From Nitrosopumilus sp. (lineage in GTDB: Archaea; Thermoproteota; Nitrososphaeria; Nitrososphaerales; Nitrosopumilaceae): a DNA stretch of 64,000 bases. The stretch covers positions 128,001 to 192,000 of the forward strand of contig OZ244651.1 in the NCBI GenBank assembly GCA_965218695.1, given 5' to 3'. Position 1 is the first letter of the stretch; each line of letters begins with the position of its first letter. The notes below the pieces were generated by a model. It was given only the letters and a program-made list of their open reading frames with translations, ran no database searches and was not told where the DNA came from. This document shows positions 1 through 63,961 of this stretch, piece after piece. A program made the translations under genes and the position numbers.

Positions 1-522
1 GGACTGGGATTCCTTGAGGCGCTAAACTCCAACCTTACCAGCATGGACGTACTCTACACCCTGACAAACAGGAAACCCCAAAACCCGTTTTCGGTGCTTG
101 ACTCAAAGAGTCGCGAGCACACCGTCCTGCGCGACTCCGTCCTGCCAGAACTCCTTGAGAACCTTTCAAGAAACATACACGTGGCATACCCACAGAAGAT
201 CTTTGAGACCGGCACCATATTCCTTGAGGGTGACCCGGTATCCGAGATGACAAGTCTTGCCGCAGTCAGCGCCCACCCGGACGCAAGCTTTACTGAGATA
301 AAGTCCGTACTCCAGTCGTGTCTTGGAACCGGGTTTGGAATGAAGATACAGACTCATACATCCGTCCATCCAACATTCCAAAAGGGCAGGTGCGCTGACA
401 TCATGATAAATGATCAAAGCGTGGGGACAATCGGGGAGATCGCCTCTGAGGTAGTCCGTAACCACAAGATCCGCAACCCGGTTGCAGGCTTTGAGATATC
501 CCTGTCCGAGACCATTCTATAG
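1..522 (+). CDS. pheT: Phenylalanyl-tRNA synthetase beta subunit, C-terminal part (5' end outside window)
   Basis: Motifs LRDSVLPELLENL..N...YPQKIFETG, F..GR.A.I, GEI....GFEI match archaeal PheT. The current stop TAG (520-522) is the first 3 nt of the inserted TnpB element. Confidence 0.9.
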   Translation, partial: GLGFLEALNSNLTSMDVLYTLTNRKPQNPFSVLDSKSREHTVLRDSVLPELLENLSRNIHVAYPQKIFETGTIFLEGDPVSEMTSLAAVSAHPDASFTEIKSVLQSCLGTGFGMKIQTHTSVHPTFQKGRCADIMINDQSVGTIGEIASEVVRNHKIRNPVAGFEISLSETIL

Positions 523-557
523 TGAAGAGCATAAGTTCCTGCAATTATAACACTCCC

Positions 558-565
558 TTTTTAAG
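558..565 (+). promoter_or_regulatory. TATA-like box in element left end, about 25 nt upstream of tnpB ATG
   Basis: TTTTTAAG lies at archaeal leaderless spacing from ATG 587. The equivalent TTTTTACA is retained in the MITE copy at about 37153. Confidence 0.5.
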
Positions 566-586
566 AAAACAAGTTCTATTGTGTAC

Positions 587-2045
587 ATGATTGTCAGCAA
601 AAGCATCAAAATTATACAATTACGAAAACTGTCACGCAGGATAGCCGAATGTTCCAAGGAGTCAGACATTATTTGACATGACGATCATGATGAAGCTGGC
701 GCATCCCAGAATGACGCAGTTTGATGTCAACAACCTGATGACCAGATGGTGCAGGGAATTCAACCTGATCAACGGCGTCCGCATGCATGAGGCCGCCTCG
801 AAACAGGCTTTCTAGGCTGTAATCAAATTTAGGAAATCAAATGTGAAAAAACACACAAAACGGATCTGGCGCAGGAGACAGATAAATCTCGGCAAAACCA
901 AAACGTACAAACACAACAGGTGGACAGATCCATCCAGCCTGATGAGACGGGGCAAAAAAACCACGAGGCTGCGTTCACTGAATTCACGCGGAAAGCCAAA
1001 ACTGCAGGACGACGACACCGTGTTTCTGCCCTGACTCGGAGAAGTAAGGACGCGCACGAAGATCCCATCCGAAGGCAGGCCCGTGTCATTCCAAATGATC
1101 GACGTCACCGACAAAGTCACGCGCAGGACAATGGATGGTGATCGCGAGTTCAAATTACATTTGCAAGTTGAAATCCCAGATCCCGAGCCTGCGACCGGTT
1201 CGGTGGCAGGATTGGATCTAGGAGTCAGGCACCCGGCGGCAGTTGCAGACGAGCATGGGAGCGAAAGGCTGTACGACATCCCTAGCGGTTGCAGGCGTCA
1301 CGACGGTGACAGGATTGACAAACTCAAGTCATGCAGGTCAAGATTCGTGCATGGTTCGCGCAAATGGAGTGAAATCAGCCGCAAGATAAAACGCGAATTG
1401 AAAAAGATATCCGACAGGCAGAAACGCAACGAGATCGACATAGCCAGACGGATAACAAAAGGACTGTCCGTGTTGTTTTTGGAAGACATGGATTTGACCA
1501 AAATGAGGCGATCCAACGGAAAGGCATCAAAGACCAGGCTGAACCGCGAGACGGCATACTCTAGGATGGGGGAGTTCCGGAGCCAAGTTGAATGGCAGAT
1601 GAAAAAGAAGGGCGGGATTCCAAAACGCGTGGAACACAAAAACACCAGCAGAACGTGCATGAGGTGCAAGGCTGTGGACAAGAAATCAAGAAACGGCGAA
1701 TCATTTGTCTGCGTCGCATGTGGATGGCGCCACCATGCCGACAAGAACGCGGCACAAATCATTTTGACTAACGAACGTCTCCACATTGGGGGGACTGGCG
1801 GCCAAGCCTACTGGAACAGTGGAGGCATCATTGCGGATGTCGAGGTCGTCACAAGGCGCGAGGATCACGGTTCGAGCCGTTCTGTAAAGGACAACTTGAC
1901 CAGTCGGCTTGGACCCGACAACAACAACAACGACAATGATATTGGAAGATCTGACAGAGCGCCAGAAAGAGCATTAGGACGTGACACGGGGAAACCTGTC
2001 TTGCACGAACTTTTACTCGCCGCTATAAAGTCCTCTCAGCCATGA
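587..2045 (+). pseudogene. tnpB: TnpB RNA-guided endonuclease, disrupted
   Basis: RuvC motifs GLDLG, LFLEDM and HHADKNAA, plus Zn finger CMRC...CVAC. ATG 587 is out of frame with the 678-2045 frame, which has in-frame stops at 813-815 and 1032-1034. Confidence 0.88.
1820..2025 (+). ncRNA. Putative omegaRNA/reRNA scaffold of the TnpB element
   Basis: About 200 nt between the TnpB catalytic C-terminus and the right end, conserved in three copies. The stem GGTTCGAGCCG...CGGCTTGGACC is kept through pairing-compatible substitutions in the MITE copy. Confidence 0.65.
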
Positions 2046-23969: not shown

Positions 23970-25495
23970 GTAAGTGTTCACGTCGTGCCTAATTCAGTTC
24001 ACTCTTGGGTAAATTTTGTGCAAACCACAGATCCAAATAGGATGGTAATCCAAACCCGATGTGAAAAGCCAGGCTGAACTCAAAAAGATGTACACGGATC
24101 TCAAGACTGAGAACATCAAGCTCAAGCAGACGATTGAGATGCAAGGGCAGATAATTGAGGAATTGAATCTGGCAGTTGCTGATCTTAAGCGCAGGCTGGT
24201 GCGGCATGACAATTACAACACCCCGTCATCACAAAAAAGGGGGCCCGGATGGCCTGACACAAAGGGAAAAGGCGACGAAAAGAATGCCTACAATAAATCC
24301 ACAAAAGCCTCCCGGGATCAAAAGGACCGCGTGGATGCGGCCGGCAGCGGGAAGTCGCGCGGGGGGCAAAAAGGCCACATGGGCCGCACCCGCAAGCCAA
24401 AACCCACCGAGTTTGAGGAACACACCCCGGAGGCCTGCCCCGAATGCGGCTCGGGTAGCCTTTCCATAGTGCAGTCAGAAAAACGCGACATTACCAGGGT
24501 GGAGCGCACGATAAAGGTCATCACCACGCGCCACACCATAAACACGTGTCGCTGCTCCTGCGGTCTGGTGGACATCAAGCCCGAGACCGGCCTTCCAGAC
24601 AAGGGCAGCTACGATCCGAGCATAACGACTGATGTTGCAGACGATTACGTGTGTCGCATGCCGTTTAGGATGATCGCAGACCGCATGTCGCGGTACGGAA
24701 TTACACTCTCCTCGGGCACGGCGCACAACATAATGCGCAGGCTGGGAACGTCGCTGGGCGCCCCTGCGGCAGCCATTGCCGCCATGATACGCAAGGCCAA
24801 GATACTGCACGCCGACGAGACATCGATTCACCTAAACGGCCGCAACGTCTGGGTGTGGATACTGCACGATCCGCTGACCGGGCACGCGCTGTACGTGATA
24901 CGGGACAGCCGGGGGGCAAAGGTTCTGAAAGAAGCGCTTGGGGGTTGGGACGGCACGTTAGTGTGCGACGGCTGGACGGCGTACGGAAAATACCGCGTCC
25001 AGCGCTGCTGGTCGCACATAATACGCGAGGCCAGGGACATCTGCAACCGCAATCCGGACTGCCCAGGCGCGCGCAACGTCCTGAAGCACCTGCGCATAAT
25101 CTATGATTATGCCAGAAGGGCAAGCAGGAAACGCTCGCGCTCTCTCCGGGACAACGCGTCTGCCATGCTGACGTCATGCATCGAAAAGATCGTTGCAAGG
25201 TACGCCGACGATCCAATATTGGAAAAATTCATGGTCAAGATCAGCAATGCTGGCAGCGACCTGTTCCGGTTCGTGCTGAACCCAAAGATCCCGCCTACAA
25301 ACAATGCTGCAGAACGCGGGTTGCGCGAGATAGTCGTGCACAGAAAAATACGGGGCAGCATAAGGGCAGAGGAGACGATGACGTGGATGGCGAATTTCTT
25401 TTCATGTGTAATGACATGGAAAAACAAGAAATTGGATTACTTGGCGGAGATTGCAAAATACGCCTAAAAATGAGTTAAACCACGTGAACACTTAC
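23970..25495 (+). mobile_element. IS66 family element (single-ORF, ISBst12-like)
   Basis: Perfect 14-bp TIR GTAAGTGTTCACGT. 8-bp TSD CACCTTTG at 23962-23969 and 25496-25503. Confidence 0.95.
24061..25467 (+). CDS. IS66 transposase
   Basis: NTPSS, GGQKGH.G, CPECG, HADET, CDGW..Y, QRCWSH, PTNNAAERGLR. Confidence 0.95.
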   Translation: MKSQAELKKMYTDLKTENIKLKQTIEMQGQIIEELNLAVADLKRRLVRHDNYNTPSSQKRGPGWPDTKGKGDEKNAYNKSTKASRDQKDRVDAAGSGKSRGGQKGHMGRTRKPKPTEFEEHTPEACPECGSGSLSIVQSEKRDITRVERTIKVITTRHTINTCRCSCGLVDIKPETGLPDKGSYDPSITTDVADDYVCRMPFRMIADRMSRYGITLSSGTAHNIMRRLGTSLGAPAAAIAAMIRKAKILHADETSIHLNGRNVWVWILHDPLTGHALYVIRDSRGAKVLKEALGGWDGTLVCDGWTAYGKYRVQRCWSHIIREARDICNRNPDCPGARNVLKHLRIIYDYARRASRKRSRSLRDNASAMLTSCIEKIVARYADDPILEKFMVKISNAGSDLFRFVLNPKIPPTNNAAERGLREIVVHRKIRGSIRAEETMTWMANFFSCVMTWKNKKLDYLAEIAKYA

Positions 25496-25612
25496 CACCT
25501 TTGTATGTGGTTCCCAATAATTACCTGAACAGACCCACATCTGAATAAATAACGGCATGCCCTCTTCTTCTGATGGTTTAAATTAGATTGGGCAGAAATC
25601 CTCCCAATACTT

Positions 25613-36741: not shown

Positions 36742-37017
36742 ATGGCGGGGTATCGGACACACATCAAGATTGTGGGTGACATACTGACAACTGCCCGGGA
36801 TGAGGACGGATCCACCGTTACCCATCTGATAAGAACTGCAAACATACCACATTCCAGAATCTCAGGAATCCTGCAGATTCTGGTATCGCATGGACTCTTA
36901 GAGGTAACGCAGACTGGGGGTTCCAACATGTTTATGATAAGCAGGTCCGGGAGGGAGTTTCTCCAGGCGTACTATGAGTTTGTAGACTTTGTAGATCACT
37001 TTGGGCTTAACATCTAG
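36742..37017 (+). CDS. Winged helix-turn-helix protein (paralog of 33029-33310)
   Basis: YRTHIKIVGDIL...LIRTANIPHSRI...ISRSGREFL. Confidence 0.85.
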   Translation: MAGYRTHIKIVGDILTTARDEDGSTVTHLIRTANIPHSRISGILQILVSHGLLEVTQTGGSNMFMISRSGREFLQAYYEFVDFVDHFGLNI

Positions 37018-37082
37018 TCAAACTCGCCGTCTTCAAAGTCGTCTTCAAAGTCAGTATCCCAGGATTCAAGGGGTTCGGACAT
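37014..37082 (-). CDS. Putative 22-aa acidic micropeptide
   Basis: MSEPLESWDTDFEDDFEDGEFD; its stop overlaps the convergent gene's stop (CTAG). Confidence 0.45.
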   Translation of the reverse strand: MSEPLESWDTDFEDDFEDGEFD

Positions 37083-37116
37083 ACTCGGAGGGAAATCCGA
37101 TCCCGTTAAAAGTCTA

Positions 37117-37389
37117 TAGCTAAAATCACAAGTCCGTGCGTTTTTACACCACTTTTTACAAAAACAAATCCTAATTACCGGCATGATCGTTGGCAAAGGC
37201 ATCATTGCAGATGTCGAGGTCGTCACAAGGCGCGAGGATCACGGTTCGAGTCGTTCTGTAAAGTACAGCTTGACAAGTCGGCTTGAACCCGACAACAACA
37301 ACGACACAAGAAGGTCTGACAGAGCACCGGAAAGAGCATCAGGACAAGATACAGAGAAATCTGTCTGCACGAATTTTTGCTCGTCGCTA
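37117..37389 (+). mobile_element. MITE derived from the TIR-bounded TnpB element (left end plus putative omegaRNA/right end)
   Basis: First about 85 bp align to 520-607 and the rest aligns to 1823-2025. Junction at microhomology GCATCA; TA on both flanks (37115-37116, 37390-37391). Confidence 0.88.
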
Positions 37390-37430
37390 TACCCAAAATG
37401 GTAATAAGCCAAGTGCTGACAGGACTGCCA

Positions 37431-62376: not shown

Positions 62377-62422
62377 GCCATATTTAGTTGGCTACGATTT
62401 AACTTATTCGACGTTTGATTTG

Positions 62423-63557
62423 CTACGTTGTACAAAAAGTAGTTCCTCCCCTAGCCAATGGAGCCGGCGTGTTTGGAAGCAAGATCAGCCTGGTGTTGAG
62501 TGGAAGCAAGGGTGTGTGGGCAAGAACGATGTACTCCAATCGGTGGCGGCATATGGGAACCCGGAGAGTACGCATCATGAAAAAGCTGGACGAATCGAAG
62601 GTAAGGTGGATACTTTCGGAGAAGGACAAGGGATCCACCAATTCATGCATCTCCAAGGCCATGGGTGTGTCGCCGCGGTGGATAAGGAGGCTGTATTCCA
62701 GGTACAGGGGACAGGAACGCAGCAGCGTGGCATATCCGATGCACATGGGCAGGCCCGCATGCGGCCTTCCCGGCCGGAAGGAACACTCTGCGGTACTGTG
62801 CGCCAAGGGCAATGACCATGTTGGGGCCGTACGCCTGCACGGGCGCATAAGGGACGTCACCGGAATAAATATTCCATACAACCGCATACACATGGTATTG
62901 CGTGACGAGGATCTGGCTGCCAGACAGCCCAACAAGAGCAAGCGCCGCAAGTGGATCCGCTTTGAGCGCACCTACTCCAACTCGATGTGGCACACCGACT
63001 ACAAGCTGCTTGACGACGGCAGGTGGTTCCTGTGCTACGAGGACGACGCCTCGCGGTTCGTGACTGCGTACGGCACGTTTGAGCGCGCAACGGCAGAAAA
63101 CGCCCTGTCGGTATTGGACGAGGCGATAAGAAACCACGGCAAGCCTGCATCCATAATGACTGACCGCGGATCCCAGTTCTACGCCACCGCATCAGAGGCA
63201 AAGAAAAAGGGTGCATCCGAGTTCGAAAAGAGGCTGGCAGAGCTTGGTATCAAGCAGATTCTGGCAGGCGTGAGGCACCCGCAGACCAACGGCAAGCTGG
63301 AGAGGCTGCACGGGGAGATCCAGCAGAAGCTGCCCGAATTTGAGGCGATAATGATGCGCAAGAGCGACCCGGTGGACCTCTTCATGCAGTGGTACAATTA
63401 CGACAGACCGCACATGTCACTTGGCCTAGACGGGGAGGAGACGCCAGCCCAGGCGTTTGTGCGCAAGATGCCACCCAAAGGAGAGATAGTAATAGACGAG
63501 CAGACAGGGGAGGAGTATCATGTGGAGTAAGGGAGGAACTACTTTTCGTATTCCACA
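62423..63557 (+). mobile_element. IS481 family element
   Basis: Inverted repeat core AAAAGTAGTTCCTCCC / GGGAGGAACTACTTTT; right end ...CACA. 12-bp direct repeat ACGTTTGATTTG at 62411-62422 and 63558-63569. Confidence 0.85.
62577..63530 (+). CDS. IS481 integrase-core (rve) transposase
   Basis: HTH, WHTDYK, DDASR, TDRGSQF, PQTNGKLER, YN..RPH.SL. Confidence 0.93.
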   Translation: MKKLDESKVRWILSEKDKGSTNSCISKAMGVSPRWIRRLYSRYRGQERSSVAYPMHMGRPACGLPGRKEHSAVLCAKGNDHVGAVRLHGRIRDVTGINIPYNRIHMVLRDEDLAARQPNKSKRRKWIRFERTYSNSMWHTDYKLLDDGRWFLCYEDDASRFVTAYGTFERATAENALSVLDEAIRNHGKPASIMTDRGSQFYATASEAKKKGASEFEKRLAELGIKQILAGVRHPQTNGKLERLHGEIQQKLPEFEAIMMRKSDPVDLFMQWYNYDRPHMSLGLDGEETPAQAFVRKMPPKGEIVIDEQTGEEYHVE

Positions 63558-63673
63558 ACGTTTGATTTGTTCCTGAACCCGGCTTCCTACAACCGTGTAT
63601 CCTAGTCGTCCCAAAAACCAGGCATGGTTTTGCCGAGTCGATCCCATTTCTGCCTGGATCCATTCTGAACTAG

Positions 63674-63961
63674 TGGTGACACCACGCTAACAAGAATGCT
63701 GCGGCGAACATCTTAGCTAGCGTACGTCTCCACTTGGCGGCTGACGGCCAAACCCGATTCGTCGGAGGCATCATTGCGGATGTCTCAGTCGTCACAAGAC
63801 GTAAGGATCACGGTTCGGTTGCAGACATGCAACCGGCAGGTCGGCTAGAACCCGGCAGAGACGATGACAGTGCAGGCTGCAAGCGCTTGGAAGGGCTGGC
63901 AGGCAGGGTCAAGGAATCGCTGAGCCACTCCAAATACCTCAAGCTGGACGAGACCCCGTAG
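63674..63961 (+). pseudogene. Chimeric remnant: TnpB C-terminus and omegaRNA 5' part joined to an IS66 transposase fragment
   Basis: W*HHANKNAAANIL...GGIIADVSVVTRRKDHGS aligns to 1725-1875. The following ...VKESLSHSKYLKLDETP resembles the IS66 xDET/DES region. Confidence 0.7.

What the first reader, a model, noticed from the sequence alone, without database searches (positions are those of the whole stretch)
37115..37391. 273-bp guide-only MITE: promoter and omegaRNA scaffold between TIRs, nuclease deleted
Seen: the left end, TATA-like box and first 7 tnpB codons (MIVGKGI vs MIVSKSI) are joined at microhomology GCATCA to the 3' scaffold and right TIR. About 1.2 kb of tnpB is removed, the deletion stops where the conserved scaffold begins, and the copy has its own TA duplication at a TCTA site. 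Inference: a minimal mobile guide-RNA cassette that borrows both transposase and TnpB in trans, each insertion producing a new guide against its own empty site (here the sua5 upstream region). A dispersed family would act as a distributed guide array.
Basis: partly seen in the sequence, partly recalled or inferred. Interest (0 to 1): 0.82.

Follow-up and report, generated by a model that had tools for sequence, protein, structure and literature searches.

The report
Nuclease-less guide-RNA remnant of a transposon
A 273-base mobile-element remnant just upstream of the sua5 gene has lost its RNA-guided nuclease gene but kept its ends, promoter-like box and guide-RNA scaffold; it is a single copy with no working partner nuclease in this genome, so it is most likely a relic, not a working guide.

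Summary
Window 37117-37389 is a 273-bp element flanked by a duplicated TA. It joins the left end, TATA-like box and first 7 tnpB codons to the last ~197 nt and right end of a ~1.5-kb tnpB element.

- **Insertion:** a sister genome (G002, flanks 95% identical) has one TA at this place.
- **Scaffold:** the kept 3' part is a structured RNA. Of 48 consensus pairs, 17 show compensatory changes, against 2-3 in slid controls. The deletion stops at its 5' edge.
- **Element family:** it is not IS200/IS605-like. Its ends, 2-bp duplication and C-TA target match an IS630-family insertion sequence with about 50 intact transposase genes here. No Y1 or serine recombinase was found.
- **Against the "distributed guide array":** there is one copy here. 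The junction is absent from 150 congeneric genomes and one metagenome collection. The only cognate tnpB here is a pseudogene.
- **Expression:** no RNA data exist.
- **Position:** the element sits between the TATA box and start codon of the single-copy sua5.

Guide-RNA-only derivatives and IS630-linked TnpB are each already published. Verdict: a real, mostly ordinary relic in an uncommon element family.

The parts
37105..37112 (+). TATA-like box of sua5 (GTTAAAAG), now cut off from the sua5 start by the insertion
   Evidence: Relatives have a TTAAAA(A) box about 20-25 nt before the conserved ATG-GTA-AT start of sua5. Its role as a promoter is inferred.
37115..37116 (.). Left copy of the TA target-site duplication, preceded by C at 37114
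   Evidence: G002 has a single TA at the orthologous place. 15 of 16 G002 copies are flanked by TA/TA and 1 of 16 by TG/TG.
37117..37140 (+). Left terminal inverted repeat (24 nt)
   Evidence: 16 of 24 positions match the reverse complement of the right end. 11-19 of 24 match the 16 ends of 8 IS630-like IS subfamilies of this genome, 13 of the 16 ends at 14 or more. Aligned with the left ends of full copies.
37153..37160 (+). TATA-like box of the element, about 26 nt before the ATG
   Evidence: A T-rich/A-rich motif at the same distance from the ATG is conserved in all 5 aligned left ends. Its role as a promoter is inferred and not tested.
37183..37404 (+). 73-codon ORF: the first 7 tnpB codons fused in frame to the last ~62 codons, read on into the flank (4 codons). 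Its stop (37402-37404) overlaps the sua5 ATG (37398-37400)
   Evidence: No Pfam family matched. In the four full G018 copies aligned here the tail is closed by a TAG, so the tail is probably not protein-constrained.
37199..37204 (+). Deletion junction in the microhomology GCATCA
   Evidence: The same hexamer stands at window 603-608 and 1825-1830 of the full copy. Left-end homology stops here and 3' homology starts at 37197.
37193..37389 (+). omegaRNA-like scaffold (~197 nt), complete
   Evidence: Covariance model R1 scores it 204.5 bits over model positions 1-199. 45 of 48 consensus pairs are standard pairs in this copy. Family covariation is shown.
37366..37389 (+). Right terminal inverted repeat (24 nt), which is also the 3' end of the scaffold
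   Evidence: 12-20 of 24 positions match the 16 ends of 8 IS630-like IS subfamilies, 13 of the 16 ends at 16 or more. Helix 1 of the scaffold pairs the 5' edge with this repeat.
37390..37391 (.). Right copy of the TA target-site duplication
   Evidence: empty site in G002.
37392..37411 (+). Flank that would serve as the guide if the scaffold is transcribed outward. It contains the sua5 start codon (37398-37400)
   Evidence: Inferred from how TnpB systems work (passages of 10.1101/2023.03.14.532601). The sua5 start was placed by comparison with 6 relatives.
520..2025 (+). Full-length relative in the same window: a 1506-bp tnpB element with TA at 518-519 and 2026-2027. Its tnpB is a pseudogene
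   Evidence: Its scaffold scores 193.2 bits.

Best explanation
The feature is a one-off internal-deletion derivative of a ~1.5-kb tnpB-carrying element. That element is bounded by IS630-type inverted repeats and moved in trans by an IS630-family DDE transposase.

- **Origin of the deletion:** a 1.22-kb in-frame deletion between two copies of GCATCA removed every TnpB domain. It left the left repeat, a TATA-like box, the start codon, the complete ~197-nt omegaRNA scaffold and the right repeat.
- **Insertion:** the element, or its full-length parent, inserted by cut-and-paste at a C-TA site and duplicated the TA. This happened after this lineage split from sister genome G002. The site lies between the TATA box and the start codon of the single-copy sua5 gene.
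- **Possible RNA:** if transcribed from its own box, or by read-through from the displaced sua5 box, it would give scaffold plus flank. That has the form of a guide RNA against the empty sua5 site.
- **Why it is probably idle:** the only cognate tnpB in this genome is a pseudogene, and the element is single-copy. It is therefore most likely an orphan relic. Its transcript, if any, would mainly serve as the leader of sua5.

Shown: anatomy, insertion, target duplication, shared ends, RNA structure conservation, copy number and the pseudogene state of tnpB. Inferred: the mobilising transposase, transcription, guide function and the effect on sua5.
For: **Anatomy and junction:**

**Insertion with TA duplication**
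- G002 flanks are 95% identical and carry one TA there. G018 (80% identical) also lacks the element.

**IS630-type ends**
- All 16 of 16 G002 copies with both ends found (of 24 loci examined) carry a 2-bp duplication: 15 TA and 1 TG.
- A 1.1-kb IS of this genome has the same kind of ends and C-TA...TA-G flanks, and encodes a DDE_3 transposase.
- I counted 52 stop-free, near-full-length transposase matches in the listing.
- The element's ends match 16 IS ends of 8 subfamilies at 11-20 of 24 positions, and 8 of the 16 IS ends match one of them at 18 or more. The ISs' own two ends match each other at 15-21 of 24.
- No Y1 transposase was found in G000, G002 or G018, and no serine recombinase.

**Structured RNA**
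- 28 sequences, 48 pairs, 98.4% of cells paired, 17 pairs with compensatory change.
- 0 of 500 shuffles reach this value, and slid controls give 2-3.
- This copy keeps 45 of 48 pairs.

**Single copy**
- In G000 the model found 4 matches below E 1e-6: this element, the full copy, one remnant and one degenerate second short element.
- All matches in other genomes start at query base 98 or later, so none carries the junction. This holds for 150 other congeneric genomes.
- The junction gave 0 hits in metagenome contigs.

**No cognate nuclease**
- tblastn with the intact G002 TnpB finds one frameshifted, stop-bearing copy plus fragments in G000.

**Position relative to sua5:**
Against: - The scaffold is almost intact, scoring 204.5 bits against 193.2 for the full copy. 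15 of its 33 differences from the G002 consensus fall in paired columns, yet only 3 pairs are broken. That could mean continued constraint, although it may all predate the deletion.
- A cognate TnpB could be supplied from outside this assembly. The assembly is 9 contigs at 99.99% completeness, and population variation was not examined.
- Two further short elements of similar build exist: one at G000 C1:1850109-1850392 with relatives in G002 and G018, and one candidate in G018. This suggests such derivatives arise repeatedly and may be kept.
- Whether the deletion preceded or followed insertion is unknown.
- Mobilisation by the IS630-family transposase rests on similar ends and the same duplication, not on an assay.
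Confidence: 0.68

Rival explanations
1. Active trans-acting guide cassette. The element is transcribed from its own promoter. A TnpB made elsewhere trims and loads the RNA and cuts empty sua5-upstream sites, so the element is kept or spread without its own nuclease.
For: - The scaffold is complete and the promoter-like box sits at the conserved distance from the ATG.
- The intact cognate TnpB of G002 has the OrfB_IS605 and TNB domains. It also shows the RuvC acidic residues and CxxC pairs in its printed sequence; those motif names are recalled, not tested.
- The base before the left TA is C in 24 of 24 elements of the tnpB family. In 48 IS630-like IS copies it is C in 33. The base after the right TA is G in only 10 of 24 (Fisher p 0.0014 and 8e-6). 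This fits a target-adjacent motif ending in C-TA.
- Passages of 10.1101/2023.03.14.532601 say protein-less derivatives often encode guide RNAs that need TnpB in trans.
- Passages of 10.1101/2023.11.20.567912 report guide RNA working in trans in E. coli.
Against: - There is no intact cognate tnpB in this genome.
- The three other intact TnpBs share only 30-34% identity with the cognate family and lack these ends.
- There is a single copy, and the junction is found nowhere else.
- The element has 3 broken pairs, against 1 in five of the seven TnpB-linked copies counted. The other two of those copies, both in G018, have 5 and 6.
Confidence: 0.14
2. Co-opted promoter and leader of sua5. The insertion split the sua5 TATA box from its start codon. 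Transcription of this single-copy gene now depends on the element's own box or on read-through. Translation may reach sua5 by coupling, because the 73-codon ORF stops 2 nt after the sua5 ATG. Under this reading the element persists because sua5 needs it.
For: - The insertion lies 6 nt before the conserved ATG-GTA-AT start of sua5 and just after the TATA-like box.
- sua5 is single-copy.
- The ORF 37183-37404 is open and ends inside ATGGTAA.
- G002 carries a different 1231-bp insertion at almost the same spot, so this promoter tolerates, or is rescued by, inserted elements.
Against: - No expression data exist.
- The open frame through the right end is a property of the whole family in G002, so it need not be selected here.
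- The in-frame junction has a one-in-three chance of arising by accident.
- Precise excision would simply restore the old promoter.
Confidence: 0.15
3. A small protein gene: the 73-residue fusion peptide is the functional product.
For: The ATG ORF is open and has a promoter-like box.
Against: - No Pfam match was found.
- The homologous tail is interrupted by a TAG in the four full G018 copies aligned here.
- Substitutions in this stretch follow RNA pairing, not codons.
Confidence: 0.03

Closest known systems
Protein-less derivatives of IS200/IS605 elements (PATEs) that keep the guide RNA
   Same: They arise by internal, repeat-mediated deletion of a tnpB element and leave fused ends (PMC3119063, passages). 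They are said often to encode omegaRNAs that need TnpB in trans (10.1101/2023.03.14.532601, passages).
   Different: PATEs have subterminal palindromes, no inverted repeats and no target duplication, and are moved by a Y1 transposase. This element has inverted repeats and a TA duplication, and no Y1 gene is present in the genome. PATE families are usually multi-copy, whereas this is one copy.
IS630-associated TnpB ('DDE-6' branch of Altae-Tran et al. 2023, PMC10691335)
   Same: TnpB is linked with IS630-family DDE transposases and the transposon ends are symmetrical (passages).
   Different: The paper describes the transposase and an HTH protein together with tnpB. Here tnpB elements carry no transposase and only share ends with separate 1.1-kb ISs. 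Whether this TnpB falls in that branch was not tested. The paper's supplements were not seen.
ISDra2 TnpB-omegaRNA complex (PDB 8h1j, 8bf8/8ex9)
   Same: The parent TnpB matches these chains over residues 172-399 at E about 1e-8. The guide scaffold overlaps the 3' end of tnpB and ends at the right end of the element.
   Different: Here the tnpB reading frame stays open through the whole scaffold to the element's last base. The element ends are inverted repeats. Similarity of the RNA to the ISDra2 RNA was not tested, and Rfam gave no match.
Ordinary MITEs of IS630/Tc1-mariner type
   Same: Small size, inverted repeats like those of a resident transposase-coding IS, and a TA duplication. A 178-bp example with the same kind of ends stands on contigs C2 and C4 of this genome.
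   Different: This one carries a covariation-supported RNA scaffold and a promoter-like box, and it derives from a cargo (tnpB) element. It is single-copy.
Fanzor nucleases inside eukaryotic Tc1/mariner-type transposons
   Same: A TnpB relative rides in a TA-duplicating inverted-repeat transposon. PMC10691335 (passage) proposes IS630-linked TnpBs as the link to Fanzors.
   Different: This case is prokaryotic (a Nitrosopumilus-like archaeon by the record title) and non-autonomous. Details of Fanzor target motifs are recalled, not checked.

Membership tests
TnpB/omegaRNA (OMEGA) element | Encodes a TnpB nuclease (RuvC fold plus zinc ribbon) | tested here: not met
   The 273-bp element has no TnpB domain, and its 73-aa ORF has no Pfam match. 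Its full-length relatives do have one: OrfB_IS605 and Cas12f1-like_TNB, and PDB TnpB chains match.
TnpB/omegaRNA (OMEGA) element | Conserved structured RNA at the 3' end of tnpB, ending at the right end of the element | tested here: met
   48 pairs, 17 with compensatory changes, 0 of 500 shuffles as high, slid controls 2-3. This copy scores 204.5 bits and keeps 45 of 48 pairs.
TnpB/omegaRNA (OMEGA) element | The RNA is made, carries a flank-derived guide and directs DNA cleavage next to a target-adjacent motif | not testable with these tools
   No RNA run was listed. The invariant C-TA left flank in 24 of 24 elements is only a hint of a motif.
IS630 / Tc1-mariner type transposon (non-autonomous member) | Terminal inverted repeats related to those of an IS630-family IS | tested here: met
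   The element's ends match 16 IS ends of 8 subfamilies at 11-20 of 24 positions, and 8 of the 16 IS ends match one of them at 18 or more. The ISs' own two ends match each other at 15-21 of 24. Alignment of ends.
IS630 / Tc1-mariner type transposon (non-autonomous member) | TA target-site duplication | tested here: met
   Empty site with one TA in G002. 15 of 16 G002 copies have TA/TA and 1 of 16 has TG/TG.
IS630 / Tc1-mariner type transposon (non-autonomous member) | A DDE (DDE_3) transposase that moves it | tested here: inconclusive
   DDE_3 transposase genes are present in trans: E 3.4e-21, and 52 stop-free near-full-length matches by my count.
MITE | Short, non-coding for a transposase, inverted repeats, target duplication | tested here: met
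   273 bp, with repeats and a TA duplication as above.
MITE | A family of several copies sharing the same internal structure (evidence of movement as a miniature element) | tested here: not met
   1 copy in G000. The junction is in 0 of 150 other congeneric genomes and 0 stretches of metagenome contigs.
IS200/IS605 PATE | Subterminal palindromes, no inverted repeats, no target duplication, Y1 transposase | tested here: not met
   Inverted repeats and a TA duplication are present. PF01797 was found in 0 of 3 genomes.
IS607-type tnpB element | Serine recombinase as transposase | tested here: not met
   PF00239 was found in 0 of 3 genomes (G000, G002, G018), while the control rang in 12 of 14 genomes.

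The most novel reading that the evidence does not exclude
The tnpB family of these Nitrosopumilus-like archaea is an IS630-mobilised OMEGA system whose target-adjacent motif is the C-TA of the transposase's own target site. Its nuclease-less derivatives arise repeatedly and stay useful. This one would give a single transcript that is both the leader of the essential sua5 gene and a guide against the empty sua5 site. Any cell of the population that holds or receives a cognate TnpB would then convert empty alleles, so a guide-only drive element would be maintained at the population level.
Probability: 0.1. Interest if true: 0.7.

Novelty: new variant of a known kind. Interest (0 to 1): 0.4.

Why it matters
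If the relic reading is right, it matters little. It is one more decayed transposon, though it shows cleanly how a microhomology deletion can leave a guide-RNA module standing alone.

The setting is more useful than the element:
- This is a tnpB family bounded by IS630-type inverted repeats with a TA duplication.
- It is active in a sister genome, where the protein search found 24 loci.
- Its guide scaffold lies wholly inside the tnpB reading frame.
- It has an invariant C before the duplicated TA.

This gives a simple prokaryotic model for how RNA-guided nucleases cooperate with cut-and-paste DDE transposons, a question so far studied for IS200/IS605 and IS607 elements. It also offers a testable candidate target-adjacent motif.

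The insertion between the TATA box and start codon of the single-copy sua5 gene is a natural test of how such elements rewire a neighbouring essential gene.

Tried and rejected
- **Rfam:** the only matches above gathering score in the whole window were two tRNAs. With the E-value threshold at 10, the 701-bp region gave one chance-level hit. No described RNA family fits.
- **Single-sequence folding:** the element's RNA is no more stable than shuffles (z -0.92). Structure support comes only from covariation.
- **Metagenome scans:** the junction 26-mer and a degenerate scaffold core both gave 0 stretches.
- **RNA evidence:** no RNA holder was listed. The four runs laid were contigs of unknown kind. 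Three hold the element unchanged, and one shows the G002-like arrangement with a low-depth contig across the right junction. This says nothing about expression.
- **Scaffold matches without tnpB in G018:** of 8 looked at, 4 share only the 3' half and have unrelated upstream DNA. One (L053) keeps a decayed tnpB 3' end upstream. None of the 8 had a left repeat in the scan. These are remnants, not a miniature family. Only one (L056) has a possible left repeat, which I read by eye (17 of 24). BLAST linked it to a full copy only by 16 nt of the right end, so I call it a candidate.
- **IS200/IS605 or IS607 membership:** rejected.
- **The 73-aa ORF as a protein gene:** rejected as unlikely (and the G018 stops).
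- **Literature:** searches for TnpB with IS630, MITEs plus guide RNA, palindrome-associated transposable elements, and Nitrosopumilus found no description of a guide-only derivative with IS630-type ends. Subscription journals and supplements were not searchable.

Full report
**What is there**

Window 37117-37389 is a 273-bp element flanked by TA at 37115-37116 and 37390-37391, with TC before the left TA.
- Its last 195 bp match the 3' end of a 1.5-kb tnpB element in the same window (1823-2027) at 85% identity, E 3.5e-61. A third, shorter match lies at 63766-63817.
- Its first ~85 bp align with the left ends of full-length copies. The best match is 69 of 91 positions to a G002 copy.
- The ORF 37183-37404 starts MIVGKGI. 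The full copy's ORF starts MIVSKSI at 587.
- Left-end homology stops and 3' homology starts inside GCATCA (37199-37204). The full copy has this hexamer at both 603-608 and 1825-1830. The derivative therefore equals a 1222-bp in-frame deletion between the two.

**The parent element is not of the IS200/IS605 kind**

- The full copy in the window (520-2025) has OrfB_IS605 and TNB domains, but it is a pseudogene with one frameshift, one TAG and one TGA.
- A sister genome, G002, holds 24 loci of the family. That tool's record title calls it a Nitrosopumilus sp. MAG. Many of these copies have an open ~481-codon tnpB.
- In 16 of those 24 loci both ends were found. All 16 are flanked by a 2-bp direct repeat: TA in 15 and TG on both sides in 1.
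- The terminal ~24 nt are imperfect inverted repeats. They resemble the ends of a 1.1-kb IS of this genome that is flanked C-TA...TA-G and encodes a DDE_3 (IS630-type) transposase.
- By my count of the listing, G000 has 52 stop-free near-full-length matches to that transposase. The same call lists 1 stop-free match at 90% identity in G002, and G002 and G018 each hold further stop-free copies at about 60%.
- No Y1 transposase and no serine recombinase was found in G000, G002 or G018, while the control genomes rang.

So the tnpB elements are non-autonomous cargo elements with IS630-type ends. Their mobilisation in trans by the IS630-family transposase is inferred from the shared ends and duplication.

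**It is a true insertion**

- G002's DNA is 95% identical on both sides and has a single TA where G000 has TA-273 bp-TA.
- G002 has an unrelated 1231-bp insertion with a 9-bp duplication immediately next to that place.
- G018 (80% identical) also lacks the element.

The element or its full-length parent therefore arrived after the split from G002.

**The kept 3' part is a structured RNA**

I aligned 28 distinct copies from G000, G002 and G018.
- RNAalifold predicts 48 pairs in 11 helices, and 17 pairs show changes on both sides that keep the pair.
- 98.4% of cells are paired. No shuffle out of 500 reaches the observed count of compensatory pairs, cells or score. Sliding the partners by 1-3 columns leaves 2-3 such pairs and 32-47% pairing.
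- The copies are related, so the shuffle control overstates. The slid control and the wholly different hairpin sequences at columns 56-83 are the stronger evidence.
- Helix 1 pairs the four bases just 5' of the junction region with the right inverted repeat.
- This copy keeps 45 of 48 pairs. Five of the seven tnpB-linked copies counted keep 47 of 48; the other two, both in G018, keep 43 and 42.
- The tnpB frame runs open through the whole scaffold in G002. In the four full G018 copies aligned here it is closed by a TAG. This argues that the stretch is kept for the RNA and not for the peptide.

**Copy number and partners**

- A covariance model of the scaffold (R1) finds four places in G000 below E 1e-6:
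  - this element, at 204.5 bits;
  - the full copy, at 193.2 bits;
  - a remnant at window 63760-63949, at 65.7 bits, with no right repeat;
  - a degenerate copy at C1:1850109-1850284, at 29.7 bits.
- In 150 other genomes of the genus, only G002, G018 and (for a 36-nt stretch) G036 match the element's DNA. Every such match starts at query base 98 or later, that is, after the junction.
- The scaffold model hits 3 of 151 genomes.
- The junction 26-mer is absent from metagenome contigs.
- tblastn with the intact G002 TnpB finds only the pseudogene and fragments in G000.
- Three other intact TnpBs share only 30-34% identity with the cognate family, and no similar ends were seen near them.

The "dispersed guide array" is therefore not there, and there is no cognate nuclease to borrow in this assembly.

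**Results that lean the other way**

- The 29.7-bit copy is a second short element of about 284 bp. It has a left repeat, a TATA-like box, an ATG, a degenerate scaffold, a right repeat and C-TA...TA-G flanks. It is single-copy in G000.
- Collinear relatives of this second element lie at non-orthologous places in G018, and in truncated form in G002. Elements of this build can therefore persist and probably move.
- One G018 locus (L056) may be a third, independent case, but the evidence is weak.
- The base before the left TA is C in 24 of 24 elements of the tnpB family: 16 in G002, 4 in G018, the window's full copy and the three short elements, one of which is only a candidate. In 48 IS630-like IS copies it is C in 33. 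The base after the right TA is G in only 10 of 24, against 35 of 48. This one-sided constraint is what a target-adjacent motif ending in C-TA would produce. It is a hint, not a test.

**Position relative to sua5**

- Relatives start sua5 with ATG-GTA-AT about 20-25 nt after a TTAAAA(A) box.
- In G000 that ATG is at 37398 and the box is at 37105-37112. The element sits between them, 6 nt before the ATG.
- sua5 is single-copy.
- The 73-codon ORF of the element ends at 37402-37404, overlapping the sua5 ATG.

From this I infer that sua5 transcripts now probably start in or read through the element, so the scaffold may well be transcribed as a leader. No RNA data exist to check this.

**Comparison with what is known**

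- Repeat-mediated core deletion of tnpB elements to protein-less derivatives was described in Haloquadratum (PMC3119063, passages).
- Such derivatives are said often to encode guide RNAs needing TnpB in trans (10.1101/2023.03.14.532601, passages).
- TnpB linked to IS630-family transposases with symmetrical ends is described in PMC10691335 (passages).

The present case combines the two: a guide-RNA-only derivative with inverted repeats and a TA duplication. My four literature searches found no description of this combination.

**Verdict**

This is a real, well-defined deletion derivative of an IS630-type tnpB element. It is a new variant of known kinds, single-copy and most likely idle as a guide here.

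Noticed in passing
window 520-2025: Full-length (1506 bp) tnpB element with TA at both sides and C before the left TA. Its tnpB carries one frameshift near 660-673, an in-frame TAG near 815 and a TGA near 1034. The scaffold is still intact (193 bits).
   Followed up: yes
window 63596-63949: Third remnant of the family: a TnpB C-terminal fragment plus a diverged scaffold (65.7 bits) with no recognisable right repeat. It lies directly after an rve-type integrase IS (ORF 62415-63530).
   Followed up: partly
G000 C1:1850109-1850392 (outside the window; locus L048 1501-1784, minus strand): Second short element (~284 bp, 38% GC) of the same build as the finding, with a degenerate scaffold. Collinear relatives lie at other places in G018 (L084 about 1480-1770) and, truncated, in G002 (L085).
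   Followed up: partly
G000 C2:1299-1476 and C4:26170-26346: Two copies of a 178-bp miniature element with the same kind of inverted repeats and TA flanks. The scaffold model reported no match there.
   Followed up: partly
G000 whole genome; e.g. C1:1436334-1437436: Very large expansion of IS630-family ISs in at least 8 subfamilies: 133 transposase matches at E<=1e-10, and 48 copies with both ends found. Target preference is C-TA-G (33 of 48 on the left, 35 of 48 on the right).
   Followed up: yes
window 23970-25496 (C1:151970-153496): One copy of a 1.53-kb repeat present in more than 30 copies at about 99.8% identity in this genome. It was not characterised.
   Followed up: no
L040 (G002:C1:949843-953679, reversed), positions 2637-2715: A full tnpB copy is followed, after its TA, by a second 78-bp right-end fragment of another subfamily. 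That fragment's repeat matches this copy's unusual left end better than the first right end does. This suggests a recombined or converted 3' part.
   Followed up: partly
L063 (G002:C1:981977-983207): At the place orthologous to the finding, G002 carries an unrelated 1231-bp insertion with a 9-bp duplication that includes the sua5 ATG. It has ~240-bp terminal inverted repeats, and related repeats occur many times in G000.
   Followed up: partly
L033 (G002:C1:2156099-2159920): The one family copy flanked by TG/TG instead of TA/TA. This shows that the dinucleotide is duplicated target and not part of the element.
   Followed up: yes
window 37014-37083, minus strand: A 23-codon, very acidic ORF (ATG at 37083) diverges from sua5. 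The same start context (…GACAT) is seen in G002, G018 and 3 of 4 more distant relatives. The listed 70-aa ORF 37014-37226 is an artefact that runs into the element.
   Followed up: no
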